This document shows positions 44,086 to 57,117 of a DNA stretch of 64,000 nt, piece after piece. This DNA is from a virus. The stretch is taken from IMG/VR virus record IMGVR_UViG_3300045988_156245; one strand, written 5' to 3'. The position numbers and the translations under genes were made by a program. The notes under the pieces are model-generated. The model had not been told where the DNA came from, did not search any database, and saw nothing but the letters and a program-made list of their open reading frames with translations. Every line of letters begins with the position of its first letter. The first letter of the stretch is position 1.

Positions 44086-44121
44086 TGTATACAGATAGAG
44101 AGATATAGGAGGCTTAATAAT

Positions 44122-44448: not shown

Positions 44449-44460
44449 AACTTTTTGTTG

Positions 44461-44740: not shown

Positions 44741-44743
44741 AAG

Positions 44744-44783
44744 CGGACCGTGGACATTGGACCTTATTTTTGTCCACGGTCCG
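44744..44783 (+). other. conserved GTGGACA hairpin, copy 2
   Basis: 13-bp stem cggaccgtggaca/tgtccacggtccg, 14-nt loop ttggaccttatttt. Confidence 0.75.
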
Positions 44784-44793
44784 TCTGGTCCAG

Positions 44794-44814
44794 CCGAACA
44801 TACGTTCGGGTTTT
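44794..44814 (+). terminator. CCGAAC-atac-GTTCGG terminator
   Basis: 6-bp GC-rich stem plus tttt; identical copy at 49289-49309. Confidence 0.6.
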
Positions 44815-44998
44815 AAACTGATTAAAAAACATCAAGTTGATTGATGTTTTTTATCCCATAAAATAAATCAAGTTAGTTGATGTTTTTTAATCAGTAAAAT
44901 ATATCAAATTCCTTGATATATTTTAATTTGAAATATTTTTATTTATTTTTGTGCAAATTGTACAAAAATTCAATGTAAATTTTGTGCAATATTCCCCC

Positions 44999-45027
44999 TT
45001 GCAATTATACACCGTAGGGTGTATAAT
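44999..45027 (+). promoter_or_regulatory. promoter with conserved leader
   Basis: TTGCAA-N17-TATAAT; leader acataagataaagaaagg plus hairpin 45052-45068. Confidence 0.55.
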
Positions 45028-45083
45028 GTATACATAAGATAAAGAAAGGAACACCCCACAAGGGGGTGGAAAGGTAAAACATT

Positions 45084-45368
45084 ATGAACAAAAATTATTC
45101 AATTGAAAAAGACAATCCATATTACAGGGAGATAGTCTGCCTTGAGATAATAGGCGAGCATATCGACGAATCCGACAAGTGTTTCTTATGTTATCAGAGA
45201 AAAGTATGGGAAGAAGTTGAGGATGGAGAAATAGAACATATGGGATTTGAACCTATTTGTTCATTAGATGAACCAATACCTAACAAAAATATTCCAACCC
45301 TCACTGTTAGTAGTAGTGAAATTGAGGATATTGAAGAAAATGATAAATATGTATGGGTAGCAAAATAA
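45084..45368 (+). CDS. hypothetical acidic protein (94 aa)
   Basis: ORF behind the conserved leader. Confidence 0.6.
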   Translation: MNKNYSIEKDNPYYREIVCLEIIGEHIDESDKCFLCYQRKVWEEVEDGEIEHMGFEPICSLDEPIPNKNIPTLTVSSSEIEDIEENDKYVWVAK

Positions 45369-45419
45369 TAAAATAAAGATAAAATCCTAGCCCTATATGG
45401 GCTAGGTAGGAGGTTTAAT

Positions 45420-45674
45420 ATGAGAACAATTACAGTTGAAAAAATAGAAGTAATAAGTTGTGTAATCGCAGTCAGTGCAAATGATAATATATATGAAGCT
45501 TGGCTTGAAGTGTTTGGTATGATTAAAGATTTTGAAACAATAGTCAATAATACAGATATATGCGAAAAACTTATAGAGATTATTAATAAGGGACTTGCAA
45601 CTGATGACTTTTTCAAAGAAGAATTATTTGAAACTTTGAGAAAAATGGGCGAAAATATTGAAAATTGGTTATAA
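45420..45674 (+). CDS. hypothetical protein (84 aa)
   Basis: aggagg RBS; preceded by the intercistronic hairpin 45386-45406. Confidence 0.6.
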   Translation: MRTITVEKIEVISCVIAVSANDNIYEAWLEVFGMIKDFETIVNNTDICEKLIEIINKGLATDDFFKEELFETLRKMGENIENWL

Positions 45675-45724
45675 AATAAAATCCTGCCCCTTGAAAAAGG
45701 GGTGGGTAGAAAAGAGGTTTTAAT

Positions 45725-46183
45725 ATGAAAGTTATAGTTTTTGATATGGACGGTACAATAGCAGACTTATATGGCTATCCAAATTGGCTAAAAGCATTAA
45801 GAAATGAGGATGAAACACCATATTCAGGTTGTAAGCCTTTGGTTGATATGCGTGAGTTATATAAAGTTTTAATGGCTTTAAAAAAAGTTGGCTATAGGAT
45901 AGTTGTAACAAGTTGGCTATCAAAAGATAGTTCAAAAGAATATAAAAGTAAAGTCAGAAAAGCAAAAAAAGATTGGCTAATAACAAGAGGTTTTCCTTAT
46001 GATGAAGTTCATTTAGTACAATATGGTACAACAAAAGCCGATTGCACTAGAAAATTAGGTGGGTTTCAGATTTTAGTTGATGATGATGAAAAGGTCTTAA
46101 AAGGTTGGCATTTAGGTGCGACTATCAACGCAAAAAGTGATATTATAAAAGCACTTTATAGGCTTTTAGAATCTGAATATTAG
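45725..46183 (+). CDS. HAD-superfamily hydrolase, 5'(3')-deoxyribonucleotidase-like
   Basis: 152 aa; motif I VFDMDGTIAD (DxDxT), VVTSW motif II-like, ILVDDD motif IV-like. Confidence 0.6.
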   Translation: MKVIVFDMDGTIADLYGYPNWLKALRNEDETPYSGCKPLVDMRELYKVLMALKKVGYRIVVTSWLSKDSSKEYKSKVRKAKKDWLITRGFPYDEVHLVQYGTTKADCTRKLGGFQILVDDDEKVLKGWHLGATINAKSDIIKALYRLLESEY

Positions 46184-46240
46184 AATGATAAATACCCCTA
46201 TACGGCATTGAAAAATAAGTAAATGAAATGCTGTATAGGG

Positions 46241-46270
46241 TTGACAAAATAAAAAAAATTATTATATAAT
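46241..46270 (+). promoter_or_regulatory. promoter with conserved leader
   Basis: TTGACA-N18-TATAAT, then gtataagataaagaaagagg. Confidence 0.55.
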
Positions 46271-46302
46271 ATATGTATAAGATAAAGAAAGAGGTATTAG
46301 AT

Positions 46303-46566
46303 ATGAATAAAATGAATTATTTACAATATAGCACAGCAATAGACGTAGTAGCAAATATGACAAATGTTGACAATGAAGTTGCAATTAAGACAGTTGGTGC
46401 ATTATGCCAAATTTTTGATTTGCAACCAGAAGAAAATCTTGATGATATTACTAAAGCATTAGTTGACTCATTAGAAAAAGCTGGTATTTTTACAGAAGAA
46501 GAAATTGAAATGGTTAAGAATGGCGAAACTAATGAAGAAATCATAGATAAAATAATGAATATGTAA
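46303..46566 (+). CDS. hypothetical acidic protein (87 aa)
   Basis: ATG 46303 after the agagg RBS. Confidence 0.55.
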   Translation: MNKMNYLQYSTAIDVVANMTNVDNEVAIKTVGALCQIFDLQPEENLDDITKALVDSLEKAGIFTEEEIEMVKNGETNEEIIDKIMNM

Positions 46567-46631
46567 TTTTATTATATATATCAAGAGTATGAAAAACTAA
46601 AGACAATAAAATATATGAAAGGAGTAAACCA

Positions 46632-46799
46632 ATGTCACAAAATCTTAATGAAATTGCGGCGATGGCACTCATTGGCGAATTTGTTTCCGTCAAAGAATTA
46701 CTCACCGCCGCAATGAAAGGTTTTGCAGAAGATGAAGATATTAAATCACAAGAAAATGCTGATTTATGTTTTAAGGCTTTGCAAACATTCCTAAAGTAA
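46632..46799 (+). CDS. small ORF (55 aa)
   Basis: aaaggag RBS 8 nt upstream; below the ORF-track length cutoff. Confidence 0.45.
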   Translation: MSQNLNEIAAMALIGEFVSVKELLTAAMKGFAEDEDIKSQENADLCFKALQTFLK

Positions 46800-46919
46800 T
46801 TAGGGAGCTACCGAAAATGGTCGTTGGTGGCTCGGTTCACTCCATAGCACCCATAAAGCAAGGTTTTTTAAATGAAAATTCAGAAATAAAGAAAAAATAA
46901 AGTTTCCTAAAATAAACAG

Positions 46920-46948
46920 TTGACACAGCCCCTTTTATATGATATAAT
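46920..46948 (+). promoter_or_regulatory. promoter
   Basis: TTGACA-N17-TGaTATAAT. Confidence 0.6.
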
Positions 46949-46979
46949 ATATGTATCAACAGAAAGAGAGGATATATAA

Positions 46980-47126
46980 ATGAAAAAAAGATTTACTTTA
47001 GTTATAAGAAATAAAAAATATAATATGATAGACCTTGATACACACGATTTATATATAGGACTTTGGCAGATATTCAAAGCCTTATGGAAAAATAGAAAAA
47101 ATTACACACTATATATAAATAAATAA
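46980..47126 (+). CDS. small basic ORF (48 aa)
   Basis: agagagg RBS; terminator 47141-47192 follows. Confidence 0.45.
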   Translation: MKKRFTLVIRNKKYNMIDLDTHDLYIGLWQIFKALWKNRKNYTLYINK

Positions 47127-47140
47127 AATAGACAAATCCC

Positions 47141-47192
47141 GATAGCAGAAACACCCTTTCCTTTTTTACCTTAAGTTTCTGCTATCTTTTTT
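47141..47192 (+). terminator. rho-independent terminator
   Basis: 12-bp stem gatagcagaaac/gtttctgctatc then tttttt. Confidence 0.65.
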
Positions 47193-47204
47193 ATAAAAAA
47201 ACTA

Positions 47205-47233
47205 TTGACAATCATTTAGTTTTGATGTATAAT
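47205..47233 (+). promoter_or_regulatory. promoter with conserved leader
   Basis: TTGACA-N17-TATAAT then atatacataagataaaggaaagg. Confidence 0.6.
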
Positions 47234-47267
47234 ATATACATAAGATAAAGGAAAGGAAGTAAATGAT

Positions 47268-47705
47268 ATGAGAAAAGTACTTGACAGACAAACTTATGTA
47301 AGAGCAATAGGAGAGAAAGAGTGGCACAGAACTTCAATTTTTAAACATTTATCCTATCAAGAGGAAAAAGAAATTACAATTAAAATAATACAGTATGATA
47401 ATTTTAAAGACACATTAAGATACGTAGAAACAGATGAAATTTATAATGCAGAAATTGATTATACTTTATTTAGAAATAAGCCTTATATTAATATTTATCA
47501 CGCACCTAAATATTCATTAATGGAACGCTCTTACTTCAAAATTACAGAAAAGAATTTTGTTCCTATAGAATTTAAAATTGAATATGAAGAGTGTGAAGAT
47601 ATAAGCCTAGATGCTCTTAAGAGATTACTTACTGCCAAAGAATATTGTGATTTTATAAATGATAATTTAGATACAAAAGTAAAAAATATGTTGTTGAGGG
47701 GTTGA
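47268..47705 (+). CDS. hypothetical protein (145 aa)
   Basis: ORF behind the conserved leader. Confidence 0.6.
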   Translation: MRKVLDRQTYVRAIGEKEWHRTSIFKHLSYQEEKEITIKIIQYDNFKDTLRYVETDEIYNAEIDYTLFRNKPYINIYHAPKYSLMERSYFKITEKNFVPIEFKIEYEECEDISLDALKRLLTAKEYCDFINDNLDTKVKNMLLRG

Positions 47706-47731
47706 CAAAAACCCCTCCCCTATGTTATAAT
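47702..47731 (+). promoter_or_regulatory. promoter of candidate small RNA
   Basis: TTGACA-N18-TGtTATAAT overlapping the stop codon of the 145-aa gene. Confidence 0.55.
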
Positions 47732-47737
47732 TAATAA

Positions 47738-47858
47738 TGGGAATGGAATTTGAATGTAGCAAAGAACAATCTGTTTTTAATTGGTCGGCTCGTGGACATT
47801 GCACCTTATTTCTGTCCACGAGCCGAATTGTGCGTCAGAGTGACGCTTGAAACGTTTT
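47738..47858 (+). ncRNA. candidate small RNA ending in GTGGACA hairpin copy 3
   Basis: no RBS; 14-bp stem tcggctcgtggaca/tgtccacgagccga (47785-47826, loop ttgcaccttatttc), second hairpin gcgtca-gag-tgacgc (47832-47846), U-run 47855-47858. Confidence 0.4.
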
Positions 47859-47953
47859 ATCTTAAAATAAATCAATTTGCTTGACCTTTTTTAATCCCGA
47901 AAAAGTGGTTAAAAATAATCAAGGATTTTGGTAAAAAAGGATAAAAAATATCA

Positions 47954-47981
47954 TTGTATTATTTTGTTATTTTGATATAAT
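47954..47981 (+). promoter_or_regulatory. promoter with conserved leader
   Basis: TTGTAT-N16-TGaTATAAT then agacacataagataaaggaaagagg. Confidence 0.5.
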
Positions 47982-48014
47982 AGACACATAAGATAAAGGA
48001 AAGAGGTAATTAAT

Positions 48015-48266
48015 ATGAGAGAAAAAAGATTAGCAGTAATGCACAATGTAGTAGTAGGATATGCAGATGATTATGCTTTAAATAATTGGTTGTCTGTAAT
48101 ACCAGATGGTGAAACTCCAGAATGTTTTGCAGAAATCGCCGCAGATGATGAACTATATCACGAGGCTTGGCAAGTGTTTAGTGAAATAATCAAGAGAGAT
48201 AGAACTGTAGCATTACAGTATATCGCAGAAATTGATAAAATGATTGAAGAAGATTATCAAATCTAA
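48015..48266 (+). CDS. hypothetical acidic protein (83 aa)
   Basis: ORF behind the conserved leader. Confidence 0.6.
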   Translation: MREKRLAVMHNVVVGYADDYALNNWLSVIPDGETPECFAEIAADDELYHEAWQVFSEIIKRDRTVALQYIAEIDKMIEEDYQI

Positions 48267-48325
48267 ATAAAAATAAAGGGTGCTATAAGCACCCTTTGAA
48301 ATCAAAAGAAAGAGAGGTAAATAAT

Positions 48326-48571
48326 ATGGAAGTAAATTGTAAGAATATACTAGAAAATAATGAAGATTTAACAATCCACGGAGAGGGACTAAATGACGGA
48401 GATACTTTTGCTTTTAAAGATGAGCCAACAACAATTTATATGATTGCAGATGGATTGTCTCAAATTTTTAATATTGAGACGGGCGAAACTTTTACATTAC
48501 AAAGAAAAGATTATGAAAAACCAATTAATATAGTATATGGTAAATTTCAAATTATATCAATACAAAGATAA
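48326..48571 (+). CDS. hypothetical protein (81 aa)
   Basis: ATG 48326 after the agagagg RBS. Confidence 0.55.
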   Translation: MEVNCKNILENNEDLTIHGEGLNDGDTFAFKDEPTTIYMIADGLSQIFNIETGETFTLQRKDYEKPINIVYGKFQIISIQR

Positions 48572-48583
48572 GGGGGCGATAAT

Positions 48584-48886
48584 ATGCTAAAAAAAGGTAC
48601 AAGAGTAAAAATAGCAGATAAACATTTAAAAAGTAATGGCAGATTAGGTACATTTGTAGGATTAAATTCACAAGATTATTATAAAATTTATCTTGATGAA
48701 CCCATTGGTAAAAATGTATATTTAGTTACATTAAGAGATATGGAATCATTTGAGATTGCGTGGGAAGAAATGGAGCCTGATGTAGTAAAAGCAGAATGTT
48801 TTGAATGGGTTAAAAATAGAGTATCAAGTTTAACCTCTCAACTAGACGCAGTAACTAAAGTTATAAAAAGGTGGAGTGATGAATAA
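48584..48886 (+). CDS. hypothetical protein (100 aa)
   Basis: gggggcg RBS-like sequence; KOW/SH3-like KKGTRVKI start. Confidence 0.55.
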   Translation: MLKKGTRVKIADKHLKSNGRLGTFVGLNSQDYYKIYLDEPIGKNVYLVTLRDMESFEIAWEEMEPDVVKAECFEWVKNRVSSLTSQLDAVTKVIKRWSDE

Positions 48887-48914
48887 TTAAATAATCAAAA
48901 GAAAGGATTTAAAA

Positions 48915-49122
48915 ATGAAAACAGTAGATTTATACAAAGAGATTCAGAATATAGCAGATAGACTTGAAGATATTAGGATGTTACTTTATAATAGTGCAGA
49001 ACATAGGGGGTAACTTTGAAGAAGATTTTCAAAATTTTGATGATGATATGTTTCGTTTGCAAAGTGAGTTAAGAAATTTAGTTTCTGATGAATTAGAACT
49101 TTATGATAATGAAGAAGATTAA
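48915..49122 (+). pseudogene. small acidic ORF interrupted at a G5 run
   Basis: the ATG 48915 frame stops at 49011-49013 right after ggggg (49006-49010); removing one G gives a continuous 68-codon ORF ending at 49122. Confidence 0.45.
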
Positions 49123-49136
49123 TAAAAAATCAATAG

Positions 49137-49167
49137 GCAAGTTGCACAAAATGTGACTTGCTTTTTT
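49137..49167 (+). terminator. terminator
   Basis: gcaagt/acttgc stem (loop carries a TTGCACAAA box) then tttttt. Confidence 0.5.
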
Positions 49168-49182
49168 GTGCAAAATTACTAC

Positions 49183-49211
49183 TTGACAAAGTGCGGCGGA
49201 TGTGCTATAAT
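49183..49211 (+). promoter_or_regulatory. promoter of candidate small RNA
   Basis: TTGACA-N17-TATAAT; the -10 context atgtgcTATAAT is identical to the promoter at 53770. Confidence 0.55.
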
Positions 49212-49217
49212 AAAATG

Positions 49218-49309
49218 GGACTCTATAGACTCATATATTTCAGATGTTTGTCGGCTCGTCGATGGTTGAGACGAGCCGAGTTGTCAAGCCGAACATACGT
49301 TCGGGTTTT
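49218..49309 (+). ncRNA. candidate small RNA with hairpin variant copy 4 and CCGAAC terminator
   Basis: 10-bp stem tcggctcgtc/gacgagccga (49251-49279), then ccgaac-atac-gttcgg plus tttt (49289-49309); no RBS. Confidence 0.4.
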
Positions 49310-49385
49310 AAATTGATTAAAATACATCAAGAACCTTGACTTATTTTATCCCATAAAAAACATCAAGTTGATTGATGTATTTTAA

Positions 49386-49640
49386 TCTAACAAAAGTTAG
49401 ACACAACTAATTCTAGTTAGGCTTGACTAACCCCAGTTAGCCTAAACTAACTAAAGTTAGTTACTATTAATTTAAGTTAGCTGTAACTAACTTTTGTTAG
49501 CCACCTCTCATTAAAGTTTTGTTAAACTAATTTTAGTTAGATTGCCCCTAATTCAAGTTAGTTATAACTAACGCAAGTTAGACTTCACAAATAAAAGTTA
49601 GTTAAAACTAACAGCAGTTAGATTAAACTATCGTCATTTT
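49386..49640. repeat. array 2: 13 phased 20-bp units with CTAAC-N4-GTTAG palindromes
   Basis: left arms at 49387, 49407, 49427, 49447, 49467, 49487, 49507, 49527, 49548, 49568, 49588, 49608, 49628; GTTAG arm nearly invariant; alternate units read aACTAAY. Confidence 0.9.
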
Positions 49641-49747
49641 GCACAAAATTTTCAATTGAAAAATTTTGTATGATTGCACAAAAAATAATATCCCCAACCC
49701 CGCATTTTTGTGCAATCTGCTAAAGTTAATTAAAATGATAACAAAGT

Positions 49748-49775
49748 ATTGTTTTTTGTAACGCATTTGATATAA
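49748..49775 (+). promoter_or_regulatory. promoter (weak -35, extended -10)
   Basis: TTGTTT-N16-TGaTATAAT; 75-nt leader with hairpin gtgctt/aagcac 49781-49800. Confidence 0.45.
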
Positions 49776-49849
49776 TAGACTTGTGCTTGATAAATAAAGC
49801 ACTTGAACATTTACAATTTAATATTTTAAGAGAAAGGTGGTAATATTTT

Positions 49850-50332
49850 ATGATTATCGAATTTGCAACTATTATCTTTTTTATTTGTAGTTTAATCAAT
49901 GTAATGTTATCTACATTAAAAACCATTTTAACAGTTAAAGCGTCAAAAGGTGTGGCAACCATTATTAATGCAATAACTTATGGCTTTTATGCTATTGTAG
50001 TAAAACAGTTAGCAAGTTTAGACTTAATAACTACTGTTACAGTTACTATTGTAACTAATATAATAGGGGTGTATGTTTCAATGTGGTTATTAGAAAAAAC
50101 AAAAAAAGATTGTTTATGGAAAATATCCGTTACTACTAAAGATAATACTTTAGTAGAAAAATTAGAAAAGTTTAGTATTTCTTATGTAATGAACCCAGTT
50201 CAGTATAAAAAACAAACTTATTATAATATTGATGTTTTTAGTGAAAATCAAAAGGATAGTTCTATTATTGAAAACATACTAAAAGAATATAAAGTAAAAT
50301 ACAATATTACAGAAATTAATAAAAAATTTTAA
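49850..50332 (+). CDS. UPF0316 (YebE-like, DUF5698/DUF2179) membrane protein
   Basis: 160 aa; 3 TM N-terminal half with LSTLKTILTVKASKGVATIINAITYGFYAIVV resembling B. subtilis YebE, small soluble C-terminal domain. Confidence 0.55.
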   Translation: MIIEFATIIFFICSLINVMLSTLKTILTVKASKGVATIINAITYGFYAIVVKQLASLDLITTVTVTIVTNIIGVYVSMWLLEKTKKDCLWKISVTTKDNTLVEKLEKFSISYVMNPVQYKKQTYYNIDVFSENQKDSSIIENILKEYKVKYNITEINKKF

Positions 50333-50349
50333 AAAAATTAAAAAAGTGC

Positions 50350-50378
50350 TTGCAATTCCTCGCAAGATATGATAATAT
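50350..50378 (+). promoter_or_regulatory. promoter (TTGCAATTCC class)
   Basis: TTGCAA-N17-TGaTAATAT; paralogous to 51466-51493, both followed by gtcaagRg...ttgcaacYcca. Confidence 0.5.
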
Positions 50379-50459
50379 TAATATTGTCAAGAGGCACAAG
50401 GGATTGCAACTCCACTTTTGACAATGTACATTTATAAATTAATAAAGAGAGGTAACAAA

Positions 50460-51437
50460 ATGAACAAGAAATTTTATTTAACAGTAGACACCGAAACGGC
50501 AACAATTCCATTTGCAAATCAGATTTGCAAAAATGCTAATCAAAAACAGAAAATTGCGATTGCTAAACCTTTAGTATATGATATTGGTTGGAGCATTACC
50601 GACAGACAAGGTAATATCGTAAAAACAGAAAACTTTTTAGTTCAGGAAACGTTCTTTGTTCCTAACGTTTTCAATACTGCTTATTACAGAGATAAAAGAC
50701 CTATTTATATGGAATTGTTAGAAAAAGGCGAGATTAAAGTTGATTGCTGGAATAACATTATGAAGTTATTCATCGCAGACCTTGAAAAAGTTGATATTTC
50801 AACTGCCTACAATGCGTGTTTTGATTTTAAAAAGGCAATACCATTTACTGAACGTTATATCAAGGCTTTATATTCAAGTGACTATCAAAAATGGGAAGAT
50901 AGACAAAAAAAGAGTTGTGAGGACATTCTTAATAATCGCAGTAATGCTAAAAATGAAGAATATCTAAATCCATATTTTGAATTAAGGGGCGTACAGTACC
51001 CTATAGCCGACTTATGGTGTATTGCTTGTGAACGTTTAATAAACATCAATAAATACAGAAACTTTTGTCTTGATAGAGGTTATGTAACAAACAGTGTAGT
51101 ATTTTTCAAATCATCAGCCGAAACATCATTTCAATATTTAATGAACAACTATGATTTTATCGAGGACCACACCGCATTATCGGACGCACTAATTGAAAGC
51201 CAGATTTTAACAAAAGCCTTGAAAAAGGGCAAAATTGAGCCTACATTATATGCGTTTCCGTTTAGGGATTTAGGTTCAACTATAGATTATGCAATAGACA
51301 CAAACCATAAATATATTGAGCCATTATACGAATTGTTATTAAAATATATTGAAAATAATGATGGTTTTGACAAAGGTGGGGCATATTGGAAGAAGATTAT
51401 GAAAGAACTTGAAAAACTTGAAAATGCAAACTTTTAA
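50460..51437 (+). CDS. DEDDh (DnaQ-like) 3'-5' exonuclease
   Basis: 325 aa from the ATG at 50460; ExoI LTVDTETA, ExoII YNACFDF, ExoIII HTALSDA. Confidence 0.7.
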   Translation: MNKKFYLTVDTETATIPFANQICKNANQKQKIAIAKPLVYDIGWSITDRQGNIVKTENFLVQETFFVPNVFNTAYYRDKRPIYMELLEKGEIKVDCWNNIMKLFIADLEKVDISTAYNACFDFKKAIPFTERYIKALYSSDYQKWEDRQKKSCEDILNNRSNAKNEEYLNPYFELRGVQYPIADLWCIACERLININKYRNFCLDRGYVTNSVVFFKSSAETSFQYLMNNYDFIEDHTALSDALIESQILTKALKKGKIEPTLYAFPFRDLGSTIDYAIDTNHKYIEPLYELLLKYIENNDGFDKGGAYWKKIMKELEKLENANF

Positions 51438-51465
51438 AAAAAATAAAAAAATTTAATAAAAAGGG

Positions 51466-51493
51466 TTGCAATTCCATTTCAAAGTGCTATAAT
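51466..51493 (+). promoter_or_regulatory. promoter (TTGCAATTCC class)
   Basis: TTGCAA-N16-TGcTATAAT. Confidence 0.5.
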
Positions 51494-51559
51494 AGATAGT
51501 GTCAAGGGAATGGAGTTGCAACCCACCAAATAAAAAATTAAGAAAAGAGGTAATGTATT

Positions 51560-51931
51560 ATGACAAACAAAAAAATGACAAAGAGAGATTATTTTAACGG
51601 ACTTTTAGGAGTGATTGAAAATCACAAAGATAGCATTGAGAATTATGAAGATTTTAAGGCTTTCATTGAAAGAGAGATTGAATTACTTAATAAGAAACGT
51701 AGCAATTCAAAACCAACAAAGACACAGATTGAAAATGAAAAAATCAAAGAAAAAATTCTTGAGGTTTTAACAGATGTAAATGAAGTTATGACAATTTCTG
51801 AATTAATGACTGCTGACGGTTTAGAAAATTATTCAAATCAGAAACTTTCAGTTTTATGTCATCAGTTAGTAAATGAGCATAAGGTAGTCAATACCAAAGT
51901 AAAAAAAGTTTCATATTTCAAAATTGCCTAA
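51560..51931 (+). CDS. hypothetical winged-helix-like protein, paralog A
   Basis: 123 aa; shares EIELLNKKRS..KPTKTQIENEKI...MTI.E(L/M)M....L..YSNQKLS.LC with 53238-53633. Confidence 0.6.
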   Translation: MTNKKMTKRDYFNGLLGVIENHKDSIENYEDFKAFIEREIELLNKKRSNSKPTKTQIENEKIKEKILEVLTDVNEVMTISELMTADGLENYSNQKLSVLCHQLVNEHKVVNTKVKKVSYFKIA

Positions 51932-51993
51932 AGGCTATGGGGATAGCCACAAAGGTTATCCCCTTAAAATCTTAAAAAAGGAGTTGATAAAAA

Positions 51994-52362
51994 ATGACTA
52001 AGGCAGAAGAAAAAGCCAAAGAAATTAAAGGTTTAATGGAACGTCATTCTTTAACATTGGAAGAAGCCACCCAACTATGGGAAGAAGATAATTCAGACTA
52101 CTGTAATGAAGAAATGGCAGAAATGGAGAATAAGGCTAAAGCCTTAAAACGCAGGTATGAGAAAGATTTAACAAAAAAACGCAAGCCTACCGAAAGGGAA
52201 CGCAAAGTTGATACAGAAAAACTTGAAATTTTAAATTTAATAGTTCCAACATTACAAACAATTAGTGACAATGTGGAACGCAAGAATGAAGTTGAGTTAC
52301 ATTTTACAAAAGGTGGTAATGATTACACGATTAAATTAATCAAACATCGTAAAAAGAAGTAA
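51994..52362 (+). CDS. hypothetical charged protein (122 aa)
   Basis: aaggag RBS; strong terminator follows. Confidence 0.6.
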   Translation: MTKAEEKAKEIKGLMERHSLTLEEATQLWEEDNSDYCNEEMAEMENKAKALKRRYEKDLTKKRKPTERERKVDTEKLEILNLIVPTLQTISDNVERKNEVELHFTKGGNDYTIKLIKHRKKK

Positions 52363-52372
52363 TGACAACGAG

Positions 52373-52413
52373 TGCAAGTAGTATTCAATACTACTTGCAT
52401 TTTTTATTTTTTT
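52373..52413 (+). terminator. strong rho-independent terminator
   Basis: tgcaagtagta/tactacttgca stem then tttttattttttt. Confidence 0.75.
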
Positions 52414-52580
52414 CAATGTTACATATTGTATGAGTGCGGGGGAGCCGGTATTAGTGACTTTTACCTAAATACAATATGTGATATGTCACGTACTATGTTA
52501 CATATTATAATATGTGATATATCACACGCAAGGTCACATATTACAATATGTGATATGTTACATACAATATGTGACCTTAA
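52405..52580. repeat. cluster of ATATGTGAT / ATCACAT direct and inverted repeats with 7-bp phasing
   Basis: acaatatgtgatatgt(c/t)ac at 52471, 52543, partial 52564; tgtgatatatcaca palindrome 52513-52526; tcacatatt-ac-aatatgtga palindrome 52534-52553. Confidence 0.8.
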
Positions 52581-52590
52581 CAGGACTCAT

Positions 52591-52617
52591 CGCAGCGTTT
52601 CCGGTTGAAACGCTGCG
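52591..52617. other. GC-rich 10-bp hairpin
   Basis: cgcagcgttt/aaacgctgcg, loop ccggttg; lies at the 5' end of the transcript predicted from the antisense promoter 52635-52663. Confidence 0.6.
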
Positions 52618-52634
52618 TGTTTGGGTAATATTTT

Positions 52635-52663
52635 ATTATACCACTTTTTCACTCCGATGTCAA
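52635..52663 (-). promoter_or_regulatory. antisense consensus promoter d
   Basis: reverse complement TTGACA-tcggagtgaaaaagtgg-TATAAT (N17, TGn). Confidence 0.6.
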
Positions 52664-52712
52664 TAGTAATTTTGCACAAAAATTTTTTCCCAAAATTGTG
52701 AAATTTTACTAA

Positions 52713-52741
52713 TTGTAATTATTAAAATATTATGCTATACT
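52713..52741 (+). promoter_or_regulatory. promoter
   Basis: TTGTAA-N17-TGcTATACT; leader atacatagataagagatagag plus hairpin 52767-52805. Confidence 0.5.
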
Positions 52742-52834
52742 ATATACATAGATAAGAGATAGAGTTCTTTACAAGGGCTTAACAAAGGGTTAGGTTCTTG
52801 TAAAGGTCTATCGCCAAAGAAAGGAGATATTAAT

Positions 52835-52936
52835 ATGTGGAATAAAGAAAAACATTGGAAGCACGACGTATTAAAATTGCATAGAAAATATGAAAAAGAA
52901 AGAAAAAAAGTGCTTGACAAAAAAGTAAATAAGTAG
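52835..52936 (+). CDS. small basic ORF (33 aa)
   Basis: aaaggag RBS; the next promoter is embedded in its 3' end. Confidence 0.35.
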   Translation: MWNKEKHWKHDVLKLHRKYEKERKKVLDKKVNK

Positions 52937-52942
52937 TATAAT
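52914..52942 (+). promoter_or_regulatory. promoter
   Basis: TTGACA-N17-TATAAT. Confidence 0.6.
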
Positions 52943-52976
52943 GATTATATCAAAAGAAAGAGAGGAGGATAAAAAA

Positions 52977-53114
52977 ATGTATTTTGAAGTAAAAGAAAAT
53001 GAGAATGAACCTGTATATTTAACAAAAGTAAGTCTATACCATGGGGTGATAATGCTATTATGTAACTATGATTTTTATAAATTTGTCCCATGGTGGCGTG
53101 TTAAAAAAGTATAA
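52977..53114 (+). CDS. small ORF (45 aa)
   Basis: agaggagg RBS 7 nt upstream. Confidence 0.45.
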   Translation: MYFEVKENENEPVYLTKVSLYHGVIMLLCNYDFYKFVPWWRVKKV

Positions 53115-53174
53115 TAAATAAGAAAGTAGGTGTTATTATGAGAAGTCCACCAAAATAAAAAAATAAAAAAACTA

Positions 53175-53203
53175 TTGACAAAATAAAATAAAAATGATAT
53201 ACT
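53175..53203 (+). promoter_or_regulatory. promoter
   Basis: TTGACA-N17-TGaTATACT. Confidence 0.6.
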
Positions 53204-53237
53204 AAAAAAGTAATAAATAAGAAAGAGGTGTTTTAAT

Positions 53238-53633
53238 ATGGAAAAGATGATAAAGAGAACTAAAAGAGCAATGTATGAAGAAATTATGAAAATGGTAGAG
53301 GGCAAAGAAAGAGTTGCAACCGAAGAAGAAATTATTGCTTTCTGCGAACACGAAATTGAACTCTTAAACAATAAGAGAAGTGGCTCAGGTAAACCAACAA
53401 AGACACAGATTGAAAATGAGAAAATTATGGAAACTATCTATTCAGTTCTTGAAAATGCGGGTGTCGGAATGACAATTACAGAAATGATGAAAACTGATGA
53501 ATTAAATGCTTATTCAAATCAGAAATTATCTGCTCTTTGCAAGAAAATGTATGAAAATGAGAAAATTCAGAAGAAAATCATCAAGAAAAAGTCATTTTTC
53601 GCTGTAAAAGGTGTAGAAATCACTGAAAAGTAG
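53238..53633 (+). CDS. hypothetical winged-helix-like protein, paralog B
   Basis: 131 aa; paralog of 51560-51931. Confidence 0.6.
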   Translation: MEKMIKRTKRAMYEEIMKMVEGKERVATEEEIIAFCEHEIELLNNKRSGSGKPTKTQIENEKIMETIYSVLENAGVGMTITEMMKTDELNAYSNQKLSALCKKMYENEKIQKKIIKKKSFFAVKGVEITEK

Positions 53634-53769
53634 TATAAAAGGGCGAAAAGGGGGCAACATCCTCCCCTTTTTGCCCAAATTGTTTAAAAAATATAAAAAA
53701 ATTAGTAGAAATGCACAAAAATTGTTAAAAAAATACAGTTTTTGTGTATTTTTTTGTGAAAATTTACTA

Positions 53770-54826: not shown

Positions 54827-54856
54827 AAGAACTCTAGAAATAGAGTTCTTTTTTTA
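54827..54856 (+). terminator. rho-independent terminator
   Basis: aagaactcta/tagagttctt stem then ttttttt. Confidence 0.7.
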
Positions 54857-54935: not shown

Positions 54936-55140
54936 CACTCTACTTAATTTCACTTAATTTTATATAATTCTACTCAATTTTACTCAGTTTTATTTATTTT
55001 CTGCTCAAATTTTATTTAATCTTTACTTAATCTTACTTATTTTCCACTCAATTTTTTATTTACCTTCACTTAATTTTATCTTATCTACTCTACTTAATTT
55101 AACTTACTTTAATTTTATCTTATCTTTATCCCACTTTCCC
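54936..55140. repeat. degenerate array of about 11 (C/T)ACT(T/C)AATTTTA-like direct repeats
   Basis: ctctacttaattt, cacttaatttta, tactcaatttta, actcagtttta, gctcaaatttta, tacttaat, cttacttatttt, cactcaatttttt, cacttaatttta, tacttaattta, cttactttaatttta at 10-22 bp intervals. Confidence 0.7.
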
Positions 55141-55161: not shown

Positions 55162-55383
55162 TTATTCCTGACATCTGCTATCTTCATAAACTTCCATCGC
55201 CCTTCTCAGCCCTCTCACTCTTTTATTCTTCCTTTTTTCCCAAATGGTTCTACTATTTTCTCTTATAAATATCTCTCTTACCAATACTCCATTAACAAAA
55301 ACTATACCTTTATCACATTTCCATTTAAAAACTGGCTGTTCCATTTGGTCCAAATCAGTTTTCTGTAGTTTCCTTTTCATCAC
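55162..55383 (-). CDS. hypothetical basic protein (73 aa)
   Basis: ORF; start overlaps the end of the 58-aa ORF. Confidence 0.5.
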   Translation of the reverse strand: MMKRKLQKTDLDQMEQPVFKWKCDKGIVFVNGVLVREIFIRENSRTIWEKRKNKRVRGLRRAMEVYEDSRCQE

Positions 55384-55531
55384 TACCTCCCGTTACTTTA
55401 TCTAAATCTTCCAAAATTTTTTCCAATTTCATTTGCAATTCTTTTTTCTGTCTCCTAGCTTCTTGCTCTGCGGCAGTTGCTTCCATTTGATTTTTTCGCA
55501 AATTTTTAACCAAACTTTCTTTTTTATTCAT
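55355..55531 (-). CDS. small coiled-coil ORF (58 aa)
   Basis: MNKKESLVKNLRKNQMEATAAEQEARRQKKELQMKLEKILEDL...; ggaagga RBS; below the ORF-track cutoff. Confidence 0.4.
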   Translation of the reverse strand: MNKKESLVKNLRKNQMEATAAEQEARRQKKELQMKLEKILEDLDKVTGGSDEKETTEN

Positions 55532-55573
55532 AATCTCATCTTCCTTCCGCCATTAAGCCCAAAATTCTCATAA

Positions 55574-55624
55574 GGTTAATTTCAAATCAGCTGAGCGAAG
55601 CGAAGCTAAGATTTGAAATTAACC
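55574..55624. other. perfect 15-bp-stem hairpin
   Basis: ggttaatttcaaatc/gatttgaaattaacc with a 21-nt GC-rich loop. Confidence 0.7.
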
Positions 55625-55681
55625 GTTCATACTATTTTTTAATAGCCTCTATTTTTCAAAAAATCTATTACTATTATTAAG

Positions 55682-55799
55682 GGTAACACTTCATTAACAT
55701 TTTTAATTAAACTTGGTACACTTTATTAACAATCATTTAAGCAAAGTTGGTACACTTTTTTAACATTTATTTAAAATTTTTTGGTACACTTTATTAACA
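55682..55799. repeat. four 17-18-bp iteron-like direct repeats, 33-34 bp phasing
   Basis: ggtaacacttcattaaca 55682, ggtacactttattaaca 55715, ggtacacttttttaaca 55749, ggtacactttattaaca 55783. Confidence 0.85.
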
Positions 55800-55805
55800 T
55801 TTTTC

Positions 55806-56432
55806 TTAAATAATTTTTGTTTTAACTTCTTCTTCATTAAAATTTAAAGTATTATTAACACTGTCTAAATAATATTTAGTTTTATTGCCTTCCATTTGAG
55901 CATGGTATTCAATTAAATCTAATTTTTTTAAAACAAAAAGTATATCTAATATAGTTTGATTACTAGCCCCTTTATTTTTAGTACTTAAACCTAAAATAGC
56001 TTTAATATAGCTTAAAGAAAAAGGTCCAGATTTTTCTTCGTTTTTATACCATATCTTAATTAAAATTGCTAATACAGATAAACTTCTTTCTTTTAATGTA
56101 TTAACTAAAACCCTAACAGTATTAATAGGCAATAGAGTAGCAATATTACTATCTAATACAACTAATTCATACATCTTTACTTCTTCATTATAAATAATAA
56201 GACCACTATCTAATAAATTATGAAAATTTTTTGATGCAGTTTGTCTTGTTATTCCTAATCCTTCTGCAAGATTAACAAATTTACAATCTTCCTTTTTTAC
56301 AAATCTAGCTTCCATATCTGGAAAAGTTACAGAAATAGATTGCAAATAACCATACATTCTGTCTGAATAGGTTCTACTAGATAAATAATGCTTATCACTA
56401 GGCATTTGTCTTGAATTTTTTTCTATTTTCAT
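55806..56432 (-). CDS. double winged-helix DNA-binding protein (RepA-like initiator or repressor candidate)
   Basis: 208 aa; two wHTH-like segments NLAEGLGITRQTASKNFHNLLDSGLIIY and YIKAILGLSTKNKGASNQTILDILFVLKKLDLIEY; flanked by inverted iteron arrays. Confidence 0.45.
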   Translation of the reverse strand: MKIEKNSRQMPSDKHYLSSRTYSDRMYGYLQSISVTFPDMEARFVKKEDCKFVNLAEGLGITRQTASKNFHNLLDSGLIIYNEEVKMYELVVLDSNIATLLPINTVRVLVNTLKERSLSVLAILIKIWYKNEEKSGPFSLSYIKAILGLSTKNKGASNQTILDILFVLKKLDLIEYHAQMEGNKTKYYLDSVNNTLNFNEEEVKTKII

Positions 56433-56534
56433 ATAAATAATCTCCTTTCACCTTTATATAAAAATAGTCCAAATACTGTTTTTAACTTTTGTCCTATGTT
56501 TATTAACGCTTTTATTATCTTTAAATATTTTATT

Positions 56535-56621
56535 AAAAATGTTAGCAAAAAATGTTAATAAAGTGCACCACTTAACAGTTTATCCAAAAATGTTAATAAA
56601 AAATGTTAATAAACTGCACCA
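56535..56621. repeat. iteron copies in opposite orientation upstream of the wHTH gene
   Basis: tgttaataaagtgcacc 56553-56569 and tgttaataaactgcacc 56604-56620, each preceded by an aaaaatgtta half repeat (56540, 56591). Confidence 0.8.
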
Positions 56622-56814
56622 TTCTTATTAAAAATGCGGGAAGGCTGCCTTTATGTTGCCATTAATCAAGAACATCCGCATTATTATACGATTCTTAGCA
56701 TTTTTATTAAAACTCGTAACGATTTTGCTTGATTTCTTATCAAGAGCCAAAAATCATCCAAATTTTCACTATTCTAATAAAGTGCTTTCTACACTACCTA
56801 GTTTATATATTGCG

Positions 56815-57117
56815 TCAGGACCCCTCCCTATCTTCACTAGTAGGACTCCCCGCCTTTTCAGACTCTCTTGGAGTCTCTTGAAGTGTTTCCTCACATAATT
56901 CTCGCTCACATTCAACTTCATCGCCACTTCCGCACTCGTCATAATCTACCTCCACTATAGTTGGCTTTTGTTTTAATCTATCATCAACAGGCATCATATA
57001 TCCACGCACTACCTGATTAAAAAATATACATTGTCCATTTCTAATTGGCACTAAAGGTTTACTACAATCTGTATTAATATTCCATGGACAATTCATCATA
57101 TCACATTTAACTATCAT
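56815..57117 (-). CDS. Cys-rich small protein with acidic tail (100 aa)
   Basis: own consensus promoter 57148-57176 and a ggaaagg leader similar to the plus-strand leaders. Confidence 0.55.
   Translation of the reverse strand: MIVKCDMMNCPWNINTDCSKPLVPIRNGQCIFFNQVVRGYMMPVDDRLKQKPTIVEVDYDECGSGDEVECERELCEETLQETPRESEKAGSPTSEDREGS

What the first reader, a model, noticed from the sequence alone, without database searches (positions are those of the whole stretch)
55682..56621. Double winged-helix gene bracketed by inverted iteron arrays: a plasmid-RepA-like replicon or autoregulated switch inside the phage
The 208-aa minus-strand protein (55806-56432) shows two winged-helix-like segments. Downstream of it are four copies of GGTA(A)CACTT(T/C)(A/T)TTAACA at 55682, 55715, 55749 and 55783, phased 33-34 bp apart (about three helical turns). 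Upstream, in its promoter region, the same 17-mer occurs twice in the opposite orientation (TGTTAATAAAGTGCACC at 56553-56569 and TGTTAATAAACTGCACC at 56604-56620). Each upstream copy is preceded by an extra AAAAATGTTA half-site, and a further variant lies at 56774-56785. An initiator gene flanked by iteron sets is the organisation of iteron plasmids and of the P1 plasmid-prophage replicon (repA between incC and incA). The window contains no integrase. The cluster (57117 down to 55162) is the only minus-strand island in the early arm. It is followed by an A/T-rich phased repeat tract (54936-55140) and a perfect 15-bp-stem hairpin (55574-55624). Together this suggests an origin/copy-control module and possibly an extrachromosomal (phage-plasmid) lifestyle. 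The CTAAC arrays would then be candidate centromeres. The alternative is a repressor with distributed operators.
Basis: partly seen in the sequence, partly recalled or inferred. Interest (0 to 1): 0.8.

Follow-up and report, generated by a model that had tools for sequence, protein, structure and literature searches.

The report
Iteron-flanked double winged-helix phage module
A gut phage gene for a two-winged-helix DNA-binding protein sits between arrays of its own binding sites, next to an A/T-rich stretch and a hairpin; this layout recurs in hundreds of related uncultured phages and most likely marks a previously undescribed type of replication origin, though a local gene switch is not excluded.

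Summary
All six 17-mers in the 64-kb window flank the 208-aa gene (0.5 expected), and the protein models confidently as two tandem winged helices (pLDDT 96).

The module is conserved far beyond this phage. About 450 protein clusters form an unnamed family. PHROGs labels it "ScpB", a label that only its fold supports. More than 20 divergent lineages share one layout: repeat array, gene, repeat array, three or four A/T-rich boxes, then a long hairpin. In 16 of 23 lineages the hairpin region carries a C-GAA-G motif, always on the antisense strand.

The repeats are bipartite: a conserved TGTTAA half plus a lineage-specific half. Both halves co-vary with the two recognition helices, so direct binding is well supported.

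I found no detectable homology to Rep_3/RepA. A 7-kb plasmid carries the module alongside its own Rep_3 initiator. In TAG-recoded relatives the gene is full of in-frame TAGs, so the host's standard code cannot translate it. A P1-like plasmid-prophage replicon is therefore not supported in general, although one member sits in a 93-kb Clostridium perfringens phage-plasmid.

Best reading (about 0.45): an iteron-type origin with its binding protein, resembling IncQ oriV in layout. Main rival (about 0.33): a local, autoregulated transcription switch.

The parts
55806..56432 (-). Gene for the 208-aa tandem winged-helix (WH1 about residues 43-102, WH2 about 103-192) iteron-binding protein. It has a conserved N-terminal arm, NSRQxP...YxDxLYGYLQ.
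   Evidence: ORF. AF2 pLDDT 96.4. Family of 448 clusters at 50% identity. PHROG 3396 at E 4e-9, full length. Only sub-threshold generic wHTH Pfam hits.
55682..55799 (-). Downstream iteron array: four copies of TGTTAATAAAGTGTACC (read on the gene strand), 33-34 bp apart. The copy nearest the hairpin is degenerate.
   Evidence: An equivalent downstream array of 2-4 copies occurs in more than 20 lineages.
56535..56620 (+). Upstream iterons: two full copies (56553-56569, 56604-56620), inverted relative to the downstream array. Each is preceded by a solo conserved half-site AAAAATGTTA (56535, 56586).
   Evidence: In all other lineages the upstream array (3-8 copies) is in direct orientation.
55625..55681 (-). 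A/T-rich spacer with four AATAG boxes. It also holds a sigma-70-like match, TTGAAA-17-AATAGT (55659->55631). I read it as a candidate DNA-unwinding element and/or promoter.
   Evidence: Three or four A/T-rich boxes of 10-14 bp follow the iterons in every lineage examined, including plasmid pRGI00117 and the C. perfringens loci.
55572..55626 (.). Long hairpin: a 15-17-bp A/T-rich stem with a GC-rich apex. The apex reads GCGAAGCGAAGC on the + strand (antisense to the gene), giving two overlapping GCGAAGC mini-hairpin motifs. No U-run follows.
   Evidence: 17 of 19 lineages have a hairpin with a stem of at least 13 bp within 320 nt downstream. CTTCG on the sense strand outnumbers CGAAG 26 to 1. 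Stems are unrelated in sequence between lineages.
56629..56710 (-). Promoter-like TTAATA-16-TATAAT (56710->56683), followed by an imperfect hairpin (56629-56686). It lies upstream of the upstream iterons.
   Evidence: This is a consensus match only.
56769..57117 (-). Upstream genes of the island: a 100-aa 4-Cys protein (56815-57117) and an overlapping 57-aa HTH ORF (56769-56942). The island promoter TTGATA-17-TATAAT lies at 57176->57148.
   Evidence: The 4-Cys ORF also lies upstream of the homologue in L008, L007 and L024.
55162..55531 (-). Two small co-oriented ORFs (58 aa and 73 aa) after the hairpin. This cargo is variable and not conserved between lineages.
   Evidence: In recoded relatives the co-oriented downstream ORFs also carry in-frame TAGs.
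54941..55115 (.). 10-bp-period A/T-rich tract (TACTTAATTT x about 13.6) at the end of the island, next to a bidirectional terminator at 54827-54850. Whether it belongs to the module is uncertain.
   Evidence: It is conserved at 83-90% identity in close relatives. Only weak, short equivalents occur in distant lineages.

Best explanation
This is a self-contained cis/trans module built around a sequence-specific tandem winged-helix protein of a new family.

Binding (supported by covariation): each protein molecule reads one bipartite repeat of about 17-20 bp. WH1, with recognition helix ...SRQT.SK..., reads the conserved half TGTTAA. WH2 reads the lineage-specific half, GTGTACC in this phage. The assignment of each domain to each half is inferred. 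The protein loads side by side on the arrays that bracket its own gene.

Function (inferred): the downstream unit is an iteron-type replication origin. It consists of four iterons, about 55 bp of A/T-rich DNA with four AATAG boxes, and a long hairpin. Iteron loading would open the A/T-rich boxes. The hairpin apex forms the very stable C-GAA-G DNA mini-hairpin on the strand antisense to the gene, and could then extrude as a single-strand priming or loading signal.

The upstream sites would autoregulate the gene or pair with the downstream array, by analogy with the operator inverted repeats of iteron plasmids and with P1 incC/incA. In other lineages an inverted repeat of the conserved half-site lies at the gene's promoter.

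The module works during lytic growth. It is not a lysogenic plasmid replicon.
For: 1. The sites are strictly local and non-random: 6 hits against 0.5 expected, all flanking the gene.

2. The array-gene-array layout recurs in more than 20 lineages at 27-82% protein identity. Each has its own repeat, often at the 22-bp phase typical of iterons: L006, L011, L029-L036, L040 and L041.

3. Protein and DNA co-vary. WH1 helix SRQT pairs with TGTTAA, HRQT with TGTCGA, SRKT with TGGTCA (five extra loci), DRGT with TGTGGA and KRLT with TGTTCA. Within the HRQT clade, the one member with TRQT keeps TGTTAA. WH2-helix groups track the variable half.

4. The model is a confident two-WH fold. That is the fold known iteron initiators use, one WH per iteron half, as in RepE (review PMC4980987).

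5. Inverted repeats of the conserved half-site lie just before the RBS in L025, L019, L010, L007, L022 and L014. This matches the operator layout of iteron plasmids (from my own knowledge).

6. The order iterons, three or four A/T-rich boxes, hairpin is conserved even on plasmid pRGI00117 and in C. perfringens loci.

7. The hairpin region carries GCGAAGC or CCGAAGG on the antisense strand in 16 of 23 lineages, with a strand bias of 26 to 1. These motifs are documented at priming sites of G4 ori and RSF1010 ssiA (PMC13037366).

8. Viral fold neighbours include a 'Replication initiator protein' at TM 0.54. Single-WH matches include lambda O N-terminus, a replisome organizer, RepL and Replication protein C.

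9. In the circular phage-plasmid pCP_P201 the gene sits at the point where the two long gene arms diverge.
Against: GC skew follows transcription only, and its main switch is at about 40 kb, not at this locus.

There is no sequence homology to any known initiator family. The Rep_3 profile comparison is inconclusive at 33%.

Plasmid pRGI00117 has its own Rep_3 gene and iterons, so the module is not needed as that plasmid's replicon.

The last, degenerate iteron lies a constant 20 nt or so upstream of a -10-like box, and the hairpin begins about where a transcript would start. Co-oriented ORFs always follow. All of this fits a regulated promoter equally well.

In recoded relatives the gene is TAG-dense while neighbouring early genes are TAG-free, so it is not an immediate-early product.

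The Enterococcus phage homologues have no flanking arrays.

No helicase, primase or polymerase gene lies beside the module in the window.
Confidence: 0.45

Rival explanations
1. A local, autoregulated transcription switch. The tandem-WH protein binds the arrays to repress or activate two promoters on its own strand: its own, and the one just downstream whose transcript starts with the hairpin as a 5' stabiliser. This would time the expression of a small, variable cargo of island genes after the early phase.
For: A degenerate iteron sits a constant 19-21 nt upstream of a -10-like box (TATAAT, TAATAAT or TATAAA) in nearly all lineages, and the hairpin starts 3-8 nt after that box.

The window has TTGAAA-17-AATAGT at 55659->55631.

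In L011 four iterons at 22-bp phase are followed, in the next slot, by a perfect TTGACA-17-TATAAT. L015 repeats a 35-nt 'iteron plus TATAAT' unit before two different hairpins.

Co-oriented ORFs always follow. In recoded relatives they share the TAG-dense class of the WH gene, in contrast to the TAG-free early genes around them.

The module coexists with a Rep_3 replicon on pRGI00117.

The best sequence hits are MarR, ArsR, TrmB and Crp-type wHTH regulators.
Against: Arrays of up to 8 direct repeats at 22-28 bp phase, plus a second array, are far more than a local operator needs.

A monomeric tandem-WH protein on asymmetric direct repeats is atypical for wHTH regulators, which are dimers on palindromes.

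Three or four tandem A/T boxes between site and hairpin have no role in a simple promoter.

The downstream ORFs are not conserved, whereas the cis elements are.

The hairpin apex is conserved as C-TTC-G on the sense strand. That is not a special RNA loop. Its complement is the known hyperstable DNA mini-hairpin.

AATAG boxes are not a general promoter signal in this phage.
Confidence: 0.33
2. A centromere-like or DNA-organising module. The protein coats the two arrays and pairs them, to segregate, tether or compact phage or phage-plasmid DNA. Single-protein (pSK1 Par-like) or TubR/ParR-type centromere-binding proteins are the model.
For: Arrays of direct repeats that flank and autoregulate the gene of a small wHTH protein are the layout of parC/ParR, tubC/TubR and pSK1 par (from my own knowledge).

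PDB sequence hits include the archaeal partition adaptor AspA at E 1e-3.

The best PDB fold hit is the tandem-WH condensin subunit ScpB.

Family members occur on a small plasmid that already has a Rep, and on a phage-plasmid.
Against: No ParA, ParM or TubZ partner lies next to the gene in the window. The neighbour is an AAA (PF00004) ATPase that is not conserved in other loci.

pCP_P201 has a separate TubZ gene, with a small adjacent ORF I take to be TubR, 5 kb away.

Most carriers are large phages with no sign of lysogeny.

A TAG-dense gene cannot be made under the host code during plasmid carriage.

The conserved A/T boxes and hairpin are not centromere features.
Confidence: 0.1
3. A P1-type plasmid-prophage replicon: a true RepA/Rep_3 homologue with incC/incA-like copy control, maintaining the phage as an episome in lysogens.
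For: A gene between two iteron sets, as with P1 repA (from my own knowledge).

No integrase in the window.

One relative lies in a circular 93-kb C. perfringens phage-plasmid.
Against: No Rep_3 signal, while a real Rep_3 scores 1.6e-33 in the same test. hhalign gives only 33%.

Three family queries against 72,556 plasmids gave only two weak hits, and one of those plasmids has its own Rep_3.

Two motif-limited scans of 185,579 species genomes returned nothing and then three loci. At least one of the three lies in phage-derived DNA.

Recoded relatives cannot translate the gene under the host code, whereas integrases in such phages avoid recoded stops (bioRxiv 10.1101/2021.08.26.457843).

No partition genes lie nearby.

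pCP_P201 itself carries an integrase.
Confidence: 0.05

Closest known systems
IncQ (RSF1010/R1162) oriV with RepC
   Same: The same order of cis elements: a few direct iterons of about 20 bp, an A/T-rich segment, then a hairpin carrying a C-GAA-G mini-hairpin. ssiA contains CCGAAGG (PMC13037366), and the same two variants, GCGAAGC and CCGAAGG, occur here. One weak viral fold neighbour is annotated 'Replication protein C'.
   Different: No sequence match to RepC or any IncQ protein. There is one hairpin on one strand, not an ssiA/ssiB pair. No dedicated primase or helicase genes lie alongside. Iterons lie on both sides of the gene. The host element is a large tailed phage. The RSF1010 oriV layout itself is from my own knowledge, not tested here.
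Rep_3 iteron initiators (F RepE, R6K pi, pPS10 RepA) and the P1 repA-incC/incA replicon
   Same: A tandem winged-helix protein. Asymmetric direct iterons, often at 22-bp phase. In several lineages an inverted repeat of one iteron half lies at the gene's promoter. Iteron sets lie on both sides of the gene, as in P1. Monomers binding iterons through WH domains are described in PMC4980987.
   Different: No Pfam Rep3_N or Rep3_C hit. The profile-profile comparison gives 33% over one WH only. No RepE or pi among the top PDB fold hits. No DnaA boxes were identified. The family is a lytic-phase phage family, not a plasmid family. It coexists with a genuine Rep_3 replicon on pRGI00117.
Phage origin-binding proteins (lambda O, SPP1 G38P 'replisome organizer')
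   Same: A phage-encoded winged-helix protein that binds an iteron cluster next to A/T-rich DNA. Lambda ori also has a palindrome beyond the A/T-rich region (from my own knowledge). Weak single-WH fold matches to lambda O N-terminus and a replisome organizer.
   Different: In those phages the origin lies inside the initiator gene, and the protein has a C-terminal helicase-loader-binding domain. Here the iterons flank a compact 200-aa two-WH protein, and there is no Pfam Phage_rep_O or Phage_rep_org_N hit.
ScpB (the PHROG 3396 label)
   Same: A tandem winged-helix fold. ScpB is the best PDB fold hit (3w6j_E, prob 0.94, E 8e-3, TM 0.25-0.30).
   Different: No ScpB Pfam or NCBIfam hit. No ScpA or SMC partner. 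ScpB is not a sequence-specific repeat binder. The label reflects fold only.
T4 MotA-dependent middle promoters that double as origins (oriF/oriG)
   Same: An activator box centred near -30 replaces the -35 element upstream of a sigma-70-type -10 box, next to an unwinding element. That would reconcile the promoter-like and origin-like features seen here (analogy from my own knowledge).
   Different: MotA boxes are spread over many promoters, whereas these sites are confined to one locus. No MotA or AsiA homology was found. There is no evidence here for an R-loop primer.

Membership tests
Rep_3 / RepA-RepE-pi iteron initiators | Sequence match to Pfam Rep3_N (PF01051) and Rep3_C (PF21205) | tested here: not met
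   None of 95 family members hits Rep3. Positive control: the pRGI00117 Rep scores 1.6e-33 and 1.8e-17.
Rep_3 / RepA-RepE-pi iteron initiators | Remote homology by profile-profile comparison | tested here: inconclusive
   hhalign of A2 against a 39-sequence Rep_3 alignment: probability 33.5% over 49 columns, family WH2 against Rep_3 WH1. Against a single Rep_3 sequence: 2.9%.
Rep_3 / RepA-RepE-pi iteron initiators | Two winged-helix domains in one chain | tested here: met
   AF2 model with pLDDT 96.4 and two WH units. However, no RepE or pi structure is among the 50 best PDB fold hits.
Rep_3 / RepA-RepE-pi iteron initiators | Direct iterons next to the gene, plus an inverted repeat of half an iteron at the gene's promoter | tested here: inconclusive
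   Direct arrays occur in all lineages. Half-site inverted repeats occur before the RBS in L025, L019, L010, L007, L022 and L014, but not clearly in the window, where the upstream full sites are inverted instead.
Rep_3 / RepA-RepE-pi iteron initiators | Gene plus iterons support autonomous replication | not testable with these tools
   This needs cloning into a non-replicating vector in the (unknown) host.
P1-type plasmid-prophage replicon | Adjacent partition system and episomal lysogen | tested here: not met
   No ParA, ParB or TubZ in the window ORFs scanned. Episomal carriage is not testable here. Relative pCP_P201 is a circular 93-kb element, but with a separate TubZ gene and an integrase.
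P1-type plasmid-prophage replicon | Expressible in the lysogen, under the host genetic code | tested here: not met
   This applies to the recoded relatives only: 3-11 in-frame TAGs in the gene, against none in the flanking early genes. The window phage itself uses the standard code, so the point is indirect.
IncQ-type oriV | Iterons, then an A/T-rich segment, then an ssi hairpin with a C-GAA-G mini-hairpin | tested here: met
   Met in layout only. The motif's link to priming sites comes from PMC13037366.
IncQ-type oriV | RepC, RepA-helicase and RepB'-primase homologues | tested here: not met
   No such Pfam, NCBIfam or PHROG hits for the family or its neighbours.
ScpB (segregation and condensation protein B) | ScpB sequence family membership and an ScpA/SMC partner | tested here: not met
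   Only PHROG 3396 (E 4e-9) carries the name. No Pfam or NCBIfam ScpB hit. The fold hit is weak, TM 0.25-0.30. No kleisin gene lies nearby.
MarR/ArsR-type wHTH repressors | A single wHTH with a dimerisation element, palindromic operators, and a score above the family threshold | tested here: not met
   All hits fall below the curated cut-offs and cover only residues 45-90 or so. The protein has two WH domains and asymmetric direct repeats.
Centromere-binding proteins (ParR, TubR, pSK1 Par) | Repeat array at its own promoter, plus a cognate NTPase or a coiled-coil segregation domain | tested here: inconclusive
   Arrays are present. There is no conserved NTPase neighbour and no coiled-coil in the model. 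Segregation activity is not testable here.

The most novel reading that the evidence does not exclude
The module is a portable origin of a new class whose initiator is unrelated to known Rep families. It couples origin firing to the infection programme. In recoded phages the initiator can only be made after the TAG-to-Gln code switch, so DNA replication from this origin, or a late replication mode, is gated by the genetic-code change. The same module on small plasmids such as pRGI00117 would let them be amplified by, or interfere with, an infecting phage. The strand-specific C-GAA-G-tipped hairpin would be the priming signal.
Probability: 0.15. Interest if true: 0.8.

Novelty: new variant of a known kind. 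Interest (0 to 1): 0.6.

Why it matters
Replication origins and origin-binding proteins are unknown for most uncultured gut phages. This family covers about 450 clusters at 50% identity. It spans standard-code and TAG-recoded phages of 45-200 kb, a C. perfringens phage-plasmid and a small plasmid.

The cis/trans unit is compact and easy to recognise. Its DNA-recognition code can be read from sequence: recognition-helix residues pair with iteron half-sites.

If it is an origin, it provides:
- an anchor for annotating these genomes;
- a way to build shuttle replicons or phage-dependent vectors for gut Firmicutes;
- a test of how replication is timed relative to the code switch.

If it is a switch, it defines a post-early expression class embedded antisense in the early arm.

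In either case the PHROG 'ScpB' label, which is propagating into GenBank phage records, has only fold-level support and should be reconsidered.

Tried and rejected
- GC skew as an origin indicator. It only mirrors transcription direction: the switch is at about 40 kb, with a local inversion over the island.
- Rfam. It found nothing relevant.
- The hairpin as an intrinsic terminator. No U-run follows it in any of 13 lineages.
- The hairpin as part of a general class in this phage. The other early-arm hairpins are T-run terminators or other repeat families.
- AATAG as a phage-wide promoter signal. It is not enriched elsewhere in any informative way.
- A genome terminus at the A/T tract. Contig L001 ends inside the small ORFs, not at the tract.
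- The giant 2895-aa ORF as an N4-like virion RNA polymerase that might use hairpin promoters. It is a tape-measure protein.
- A second paralogous module in the same phage. There is one copy per locus.
- The Enterococcus phage homologues as a model. They have no flanking arrays.
It is not within 3 mismatches.
- Literature searches for a described equivalent. None was found.
- ScpB, MarR, Rep_3 and partition-protein memberships. See the membership table.
Full report
**Observation**

The 17-mer TGTTAATAAAGTGYACC, allowing up to 3 mismatches, occurs six times in the 64-kb window against 0.5 expected, and no shuffle reached six. All six copies flank one gene.
- Four copies lie downstream on the gene's strand at 55683-55799, spaced 33-34 bp. 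The first has a 1-nt insertion.
- Two copies lie upstream in the opposite orientation, at 56553-56569 and 56604-56620.
- The half-site AAAAATGTTA occurs 7 times against 1.9 expected, with six copies in this locus.
- The proposed variant at 56774-56785 is not within three mismatches and is not supported.

The other elements are also real. The hairpin at 55574-55624 has a 15-bp perfect stem. The A/T-rich tract is a 10-bp-period array, TACTTAATTT x13.6. GC skew is negative only at 54-58 kb within the plus-strand arm, consistent with a lone minus-strand island. Otherwise skew just follows transcription.

**The protein**

ORF 55806-56432(-) encodes 208 aa.
- By sequence, Pfam, NCBIfam and PDB see only a generic, sub-threshold winged helix-turn-helix at residues 45-90 or so.
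- PHROGs places it full-length in phrog_3396, annotated 'ScpB'.
- An exhaustive profile search found 448 clusters at 50% identity, nearly all about 200 aa and matched end to end.
- With a 95-sequence alignment, AlphaFold gives pLDDT 96.4 and pTM 0.91. The model has a conserved N-terminal arm and two winged-helix units.
- No solved structure matches well. The best is ScpB at E 8e-3 and TM 0.25-0.30, and RepE and pi are not among the top 50.
- Among predicted viral structures there are good full-length neighbours (TM up to 0.76). One is annotated 'Replication initiator protein' (TM 0.54). Weaker single-domain matches include lambda O N-terminus, a replisome organizer, RepL and Replication protein C.

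**Test against Rep_3**

A genuine Rep_3 protein from plasmid pRGI00117 scores 1.6e-33 and 1.8e-17 on Pfam Rep3_N and Rep3_C. No family member hits these models. A profile-profile comparison with a 39-sequence Rep_3 alignment gives 33% probability over 49 columns of one WH domain. This is a new family with the fold class of iteron initiators but without demonstrable homology to them.

**Comparative anatomy**

I fetched more than 35 loci from viral, metagenomic and genome collections. Conserved neighbours show that most belong to one broad group of phages. In that group the gene forms an opposite-strand island inside an arm of small early genes. The layout recurs in more than 20 lineages at 27-82% protein identity:
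- 3-8 direct repeats upstream;
- the gene;
- 2-4 repeats downstream;
- three or four A/T-rich boxes of 10-14 bp (AATAG-type, CTTAATCTAT, TAAATCATAT);
- a long hairpin.

Several lineages have the 22-bp phase typical of iterons: L006, L011, L029-L036, L040 and L041. Only the window clade has the upstream copies inverted.

The repeats are bipartite: a conserved half, TGTTAA(A/T)AAA, plus a lineage-specific half. Solo conserved half-sites are interspersed among them. In six lineages an inverted repeat of the half-site (for example TGTTAAggggTTAACA) lies just before the RBS.

**Protein-DNA covariation**

Aligning recognition helices with repeats gives several matched changes.

| WH1 recognition helix | Conserved half-site |
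|---|---|
| SRQT | TGTTAA |
| HRQT | TGTCGA |
| SRKT | TGGTCA |
| DRGT | TGTGGA |
| KRLT | TGTTCA |

- Within the HRQT clade, the one member with TRQT keeps TGTTAA.
- The SRKT-TGGTCA pairing was confirmed in five further loci.
- Groups of WH2 helices track the variable half.

Together with the strictly local distribution of sites, this makes direct binding, with one WH per half-site, the best-supported step of the mechanism. Which domain reads which half is inferred.

**The hairpin**

- 17 of 19 lineages have a hairpin with a stem of at least 13 bp within 320 nt downstream. The background is about 0.6 per kb in the whole window, and about 1.2 per kb (my estimate from the list) in the early arm.
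- Stem sequences are unrelated between lineages, but the apex is conserved.
- CTTCG on the gene's sense strand occurs 26 times against 1 for CGAAG, in 16 of 23 lineages. The antisense strand therefore reads GCGAAGC or CCGAAGG.
- These are the known hyperstable DNA mini-hairpins, documented at priming sites of phage G4 and at RSF1010 ssiA (PMC13037366).
- No U-run follows the hairpins, so they are not intrinsic terminators.
- The other hairpins in this phage's early arm are of different types.

**Evidence bearing on lifestyle**

- Three family queries against 72,556 plasmids gave two hits.
- pRGI00117 (7.2 kb) has its own Rep_3 gene with three 22-bp iterons. Separately, it carries the family gene followed by three of its own repeats, three CTAATAG boxes and a hairpin. 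There the module is a second unit, not that plasmid's Rep.
- pCP_P201 is a circular 93-kb C. perfringens element. It encodes a full virion, TubZ, a DnaB-like helicase, a Pol III alpha-like protein and an integrase. The family gene lies where its two gene arms diverge.
- Scans of 185,579 species genomes with two narrow motifs returned nothing and then three loci. One of the three lies inside phage-derived DNA in C. perfringens.
- Many relatives recode TAG as Gln. In every such locus the flanking early genes have no in-frame TAG, whereas the WH gene has 3-11 and its co-oriented neighbours have them too.
- Borges et al. report alternative code in structural and lysis genes, variable use in replication genes, and avoidance by integrases. 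The island is therefore a post-switch product. In those phages it cannot serve lysogenic plasmid maintenance.

**Interpretation**

What is well supported: a new tandem-WH family binds lineage-specific bipartite iterons that bracket its own gene, and a conserved A/T-box-plus-hairpin element is part of the unit.

What is inferred is the process served. I favour an iteron-type origin (0.45). The order iterons, A/T-rich boxes, strand-specific C-GAA-G hairpin matches origin architecture, IncQ oriV most closely. The fold class, the large phased arrays and the half-site inverted repeats match iteron initiators.

The main rival (0.33) is a local transcription switch. A degenerate iteron sits a constant 20 nt or so before a -10-like box, the hairpin starts about where a transcript would, and co-oriented genes always follow. 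The two readings are not exclusive, since some origins are activated by transcription.

A centromere or DNA-organising role (0.10) and a true P1-like plasmid replicon (0.05) are less likely.

**Novelty**

I found no description of this family or module. I rate it a new variant of a known kind: an iteron module with an unrelated binding protein.

Noticed in passing
window 41521-53761 (for example 41521-41746, 43212/43309, 44946-44989, 49142/49163, 49639-49715, 53711/53761): TTGCACAAAAA with up to 1 mismatch occurs 26 times against 6.1 expected. Most copies are inverted pairs 20-40 bp apart in intergenic DNA of the early arm. This looks like a separate, genuinely distributed operator system for another regulator.
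   Followed up: partly
window 44472-44611 and 49394-49611: Two 20-bp-period arrays built from CTAAC/GTTAG units, with 7 and 10.9 copies. They have no link to the WH iterons.
   Followed up: no
window 41463-41502, 44743-44784, 47784-47827: Three copies of a GC-rich hairpin family, GGNCCGTGGACAttg...TGTCCACGGNCC, lie between early genes.
   Followed up: no
window about 43722-43737: A run of about 14 G lies immediately before an ATG. It could be a slippage-prone tract or an assembly artefact.
   Followed up: no
L006, L010, L018, L020/L021, L024, L028-L036: These relatives read TAG as an amino acid. TAG aligns with the near-invariant Gln31 (Gln in >=90% of family members). Within each locus the early-arm genes are TAG-free, while the WH island genes carry 1.4-4.7 TAGs per 100 codons.
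   Followed up: yes
NZ_CP143272.1 (L038/L039): The C. perfringens 'plasmid' pCP_P201 is a complete 93-kb phage genome. It encodes TubZ (6322-7380), a small adjacent ORF that is probably TubR, an integrase, gyrase-like subunits, a sigma factor and MazF. It is an apparent phage-plasmid.
   Followed up: partly
HG796263.1 (L037): The 7.2-kb plasmid pRGI00117 carries a Rep_3 replicon (iterons at 1186-1251, rep at 1335-2099). It also carries the phage-type WH module (5963-6601, with its array at 6629-6692). This could be a phage-interacting or satellite-like plasmid.
   Followed up: partly
window 56769-57117; L008 154-381; L007 525-749; L024 4239-4559: A small 4-Cys protein (pattern V.C..(2-4)C...C...G.C) recurs just upstream of the WH gene in four lineages. 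In the window its 3' part overlaps a 57-aa HTH ORF in another frame.
   Followed up: partly
L033 1-20: A stray iteron of another specificity, TGTTAAAATTTTAGACATC (the L018/L019 type), lies about 300 bp upstream of a TGGTCA-type module. No second family gene is present in the locus.
   Followed up: partly
L018 about 5690-5790; L015 5650-5870: L018 has four consecutive CTTCG-tipped hairpins after the downstream array. L015 repeats a 35-nt 'iteron plus TATAAT' unit before two different hairpins.
   Followed up: no
window 54941-55115: A 10-bp-period A/T-rich tract (TACTTAATTT x13.6) lies between the island's last ORF and a bidirectional terminator (54827-54850). The helical phasing suggests bent DNA or a one-face binding array. 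Distant lineages have only weak equivalents.
   Followed up: partly
window 38524-39636: A 370-aa protein matches a phage 'sigma factor' PHROG at E 9e-46 and has a C-terminal zinc-ribbon-like segment. Pfam sees nothing. It may define phage-specific promoters.
   Followed up: no
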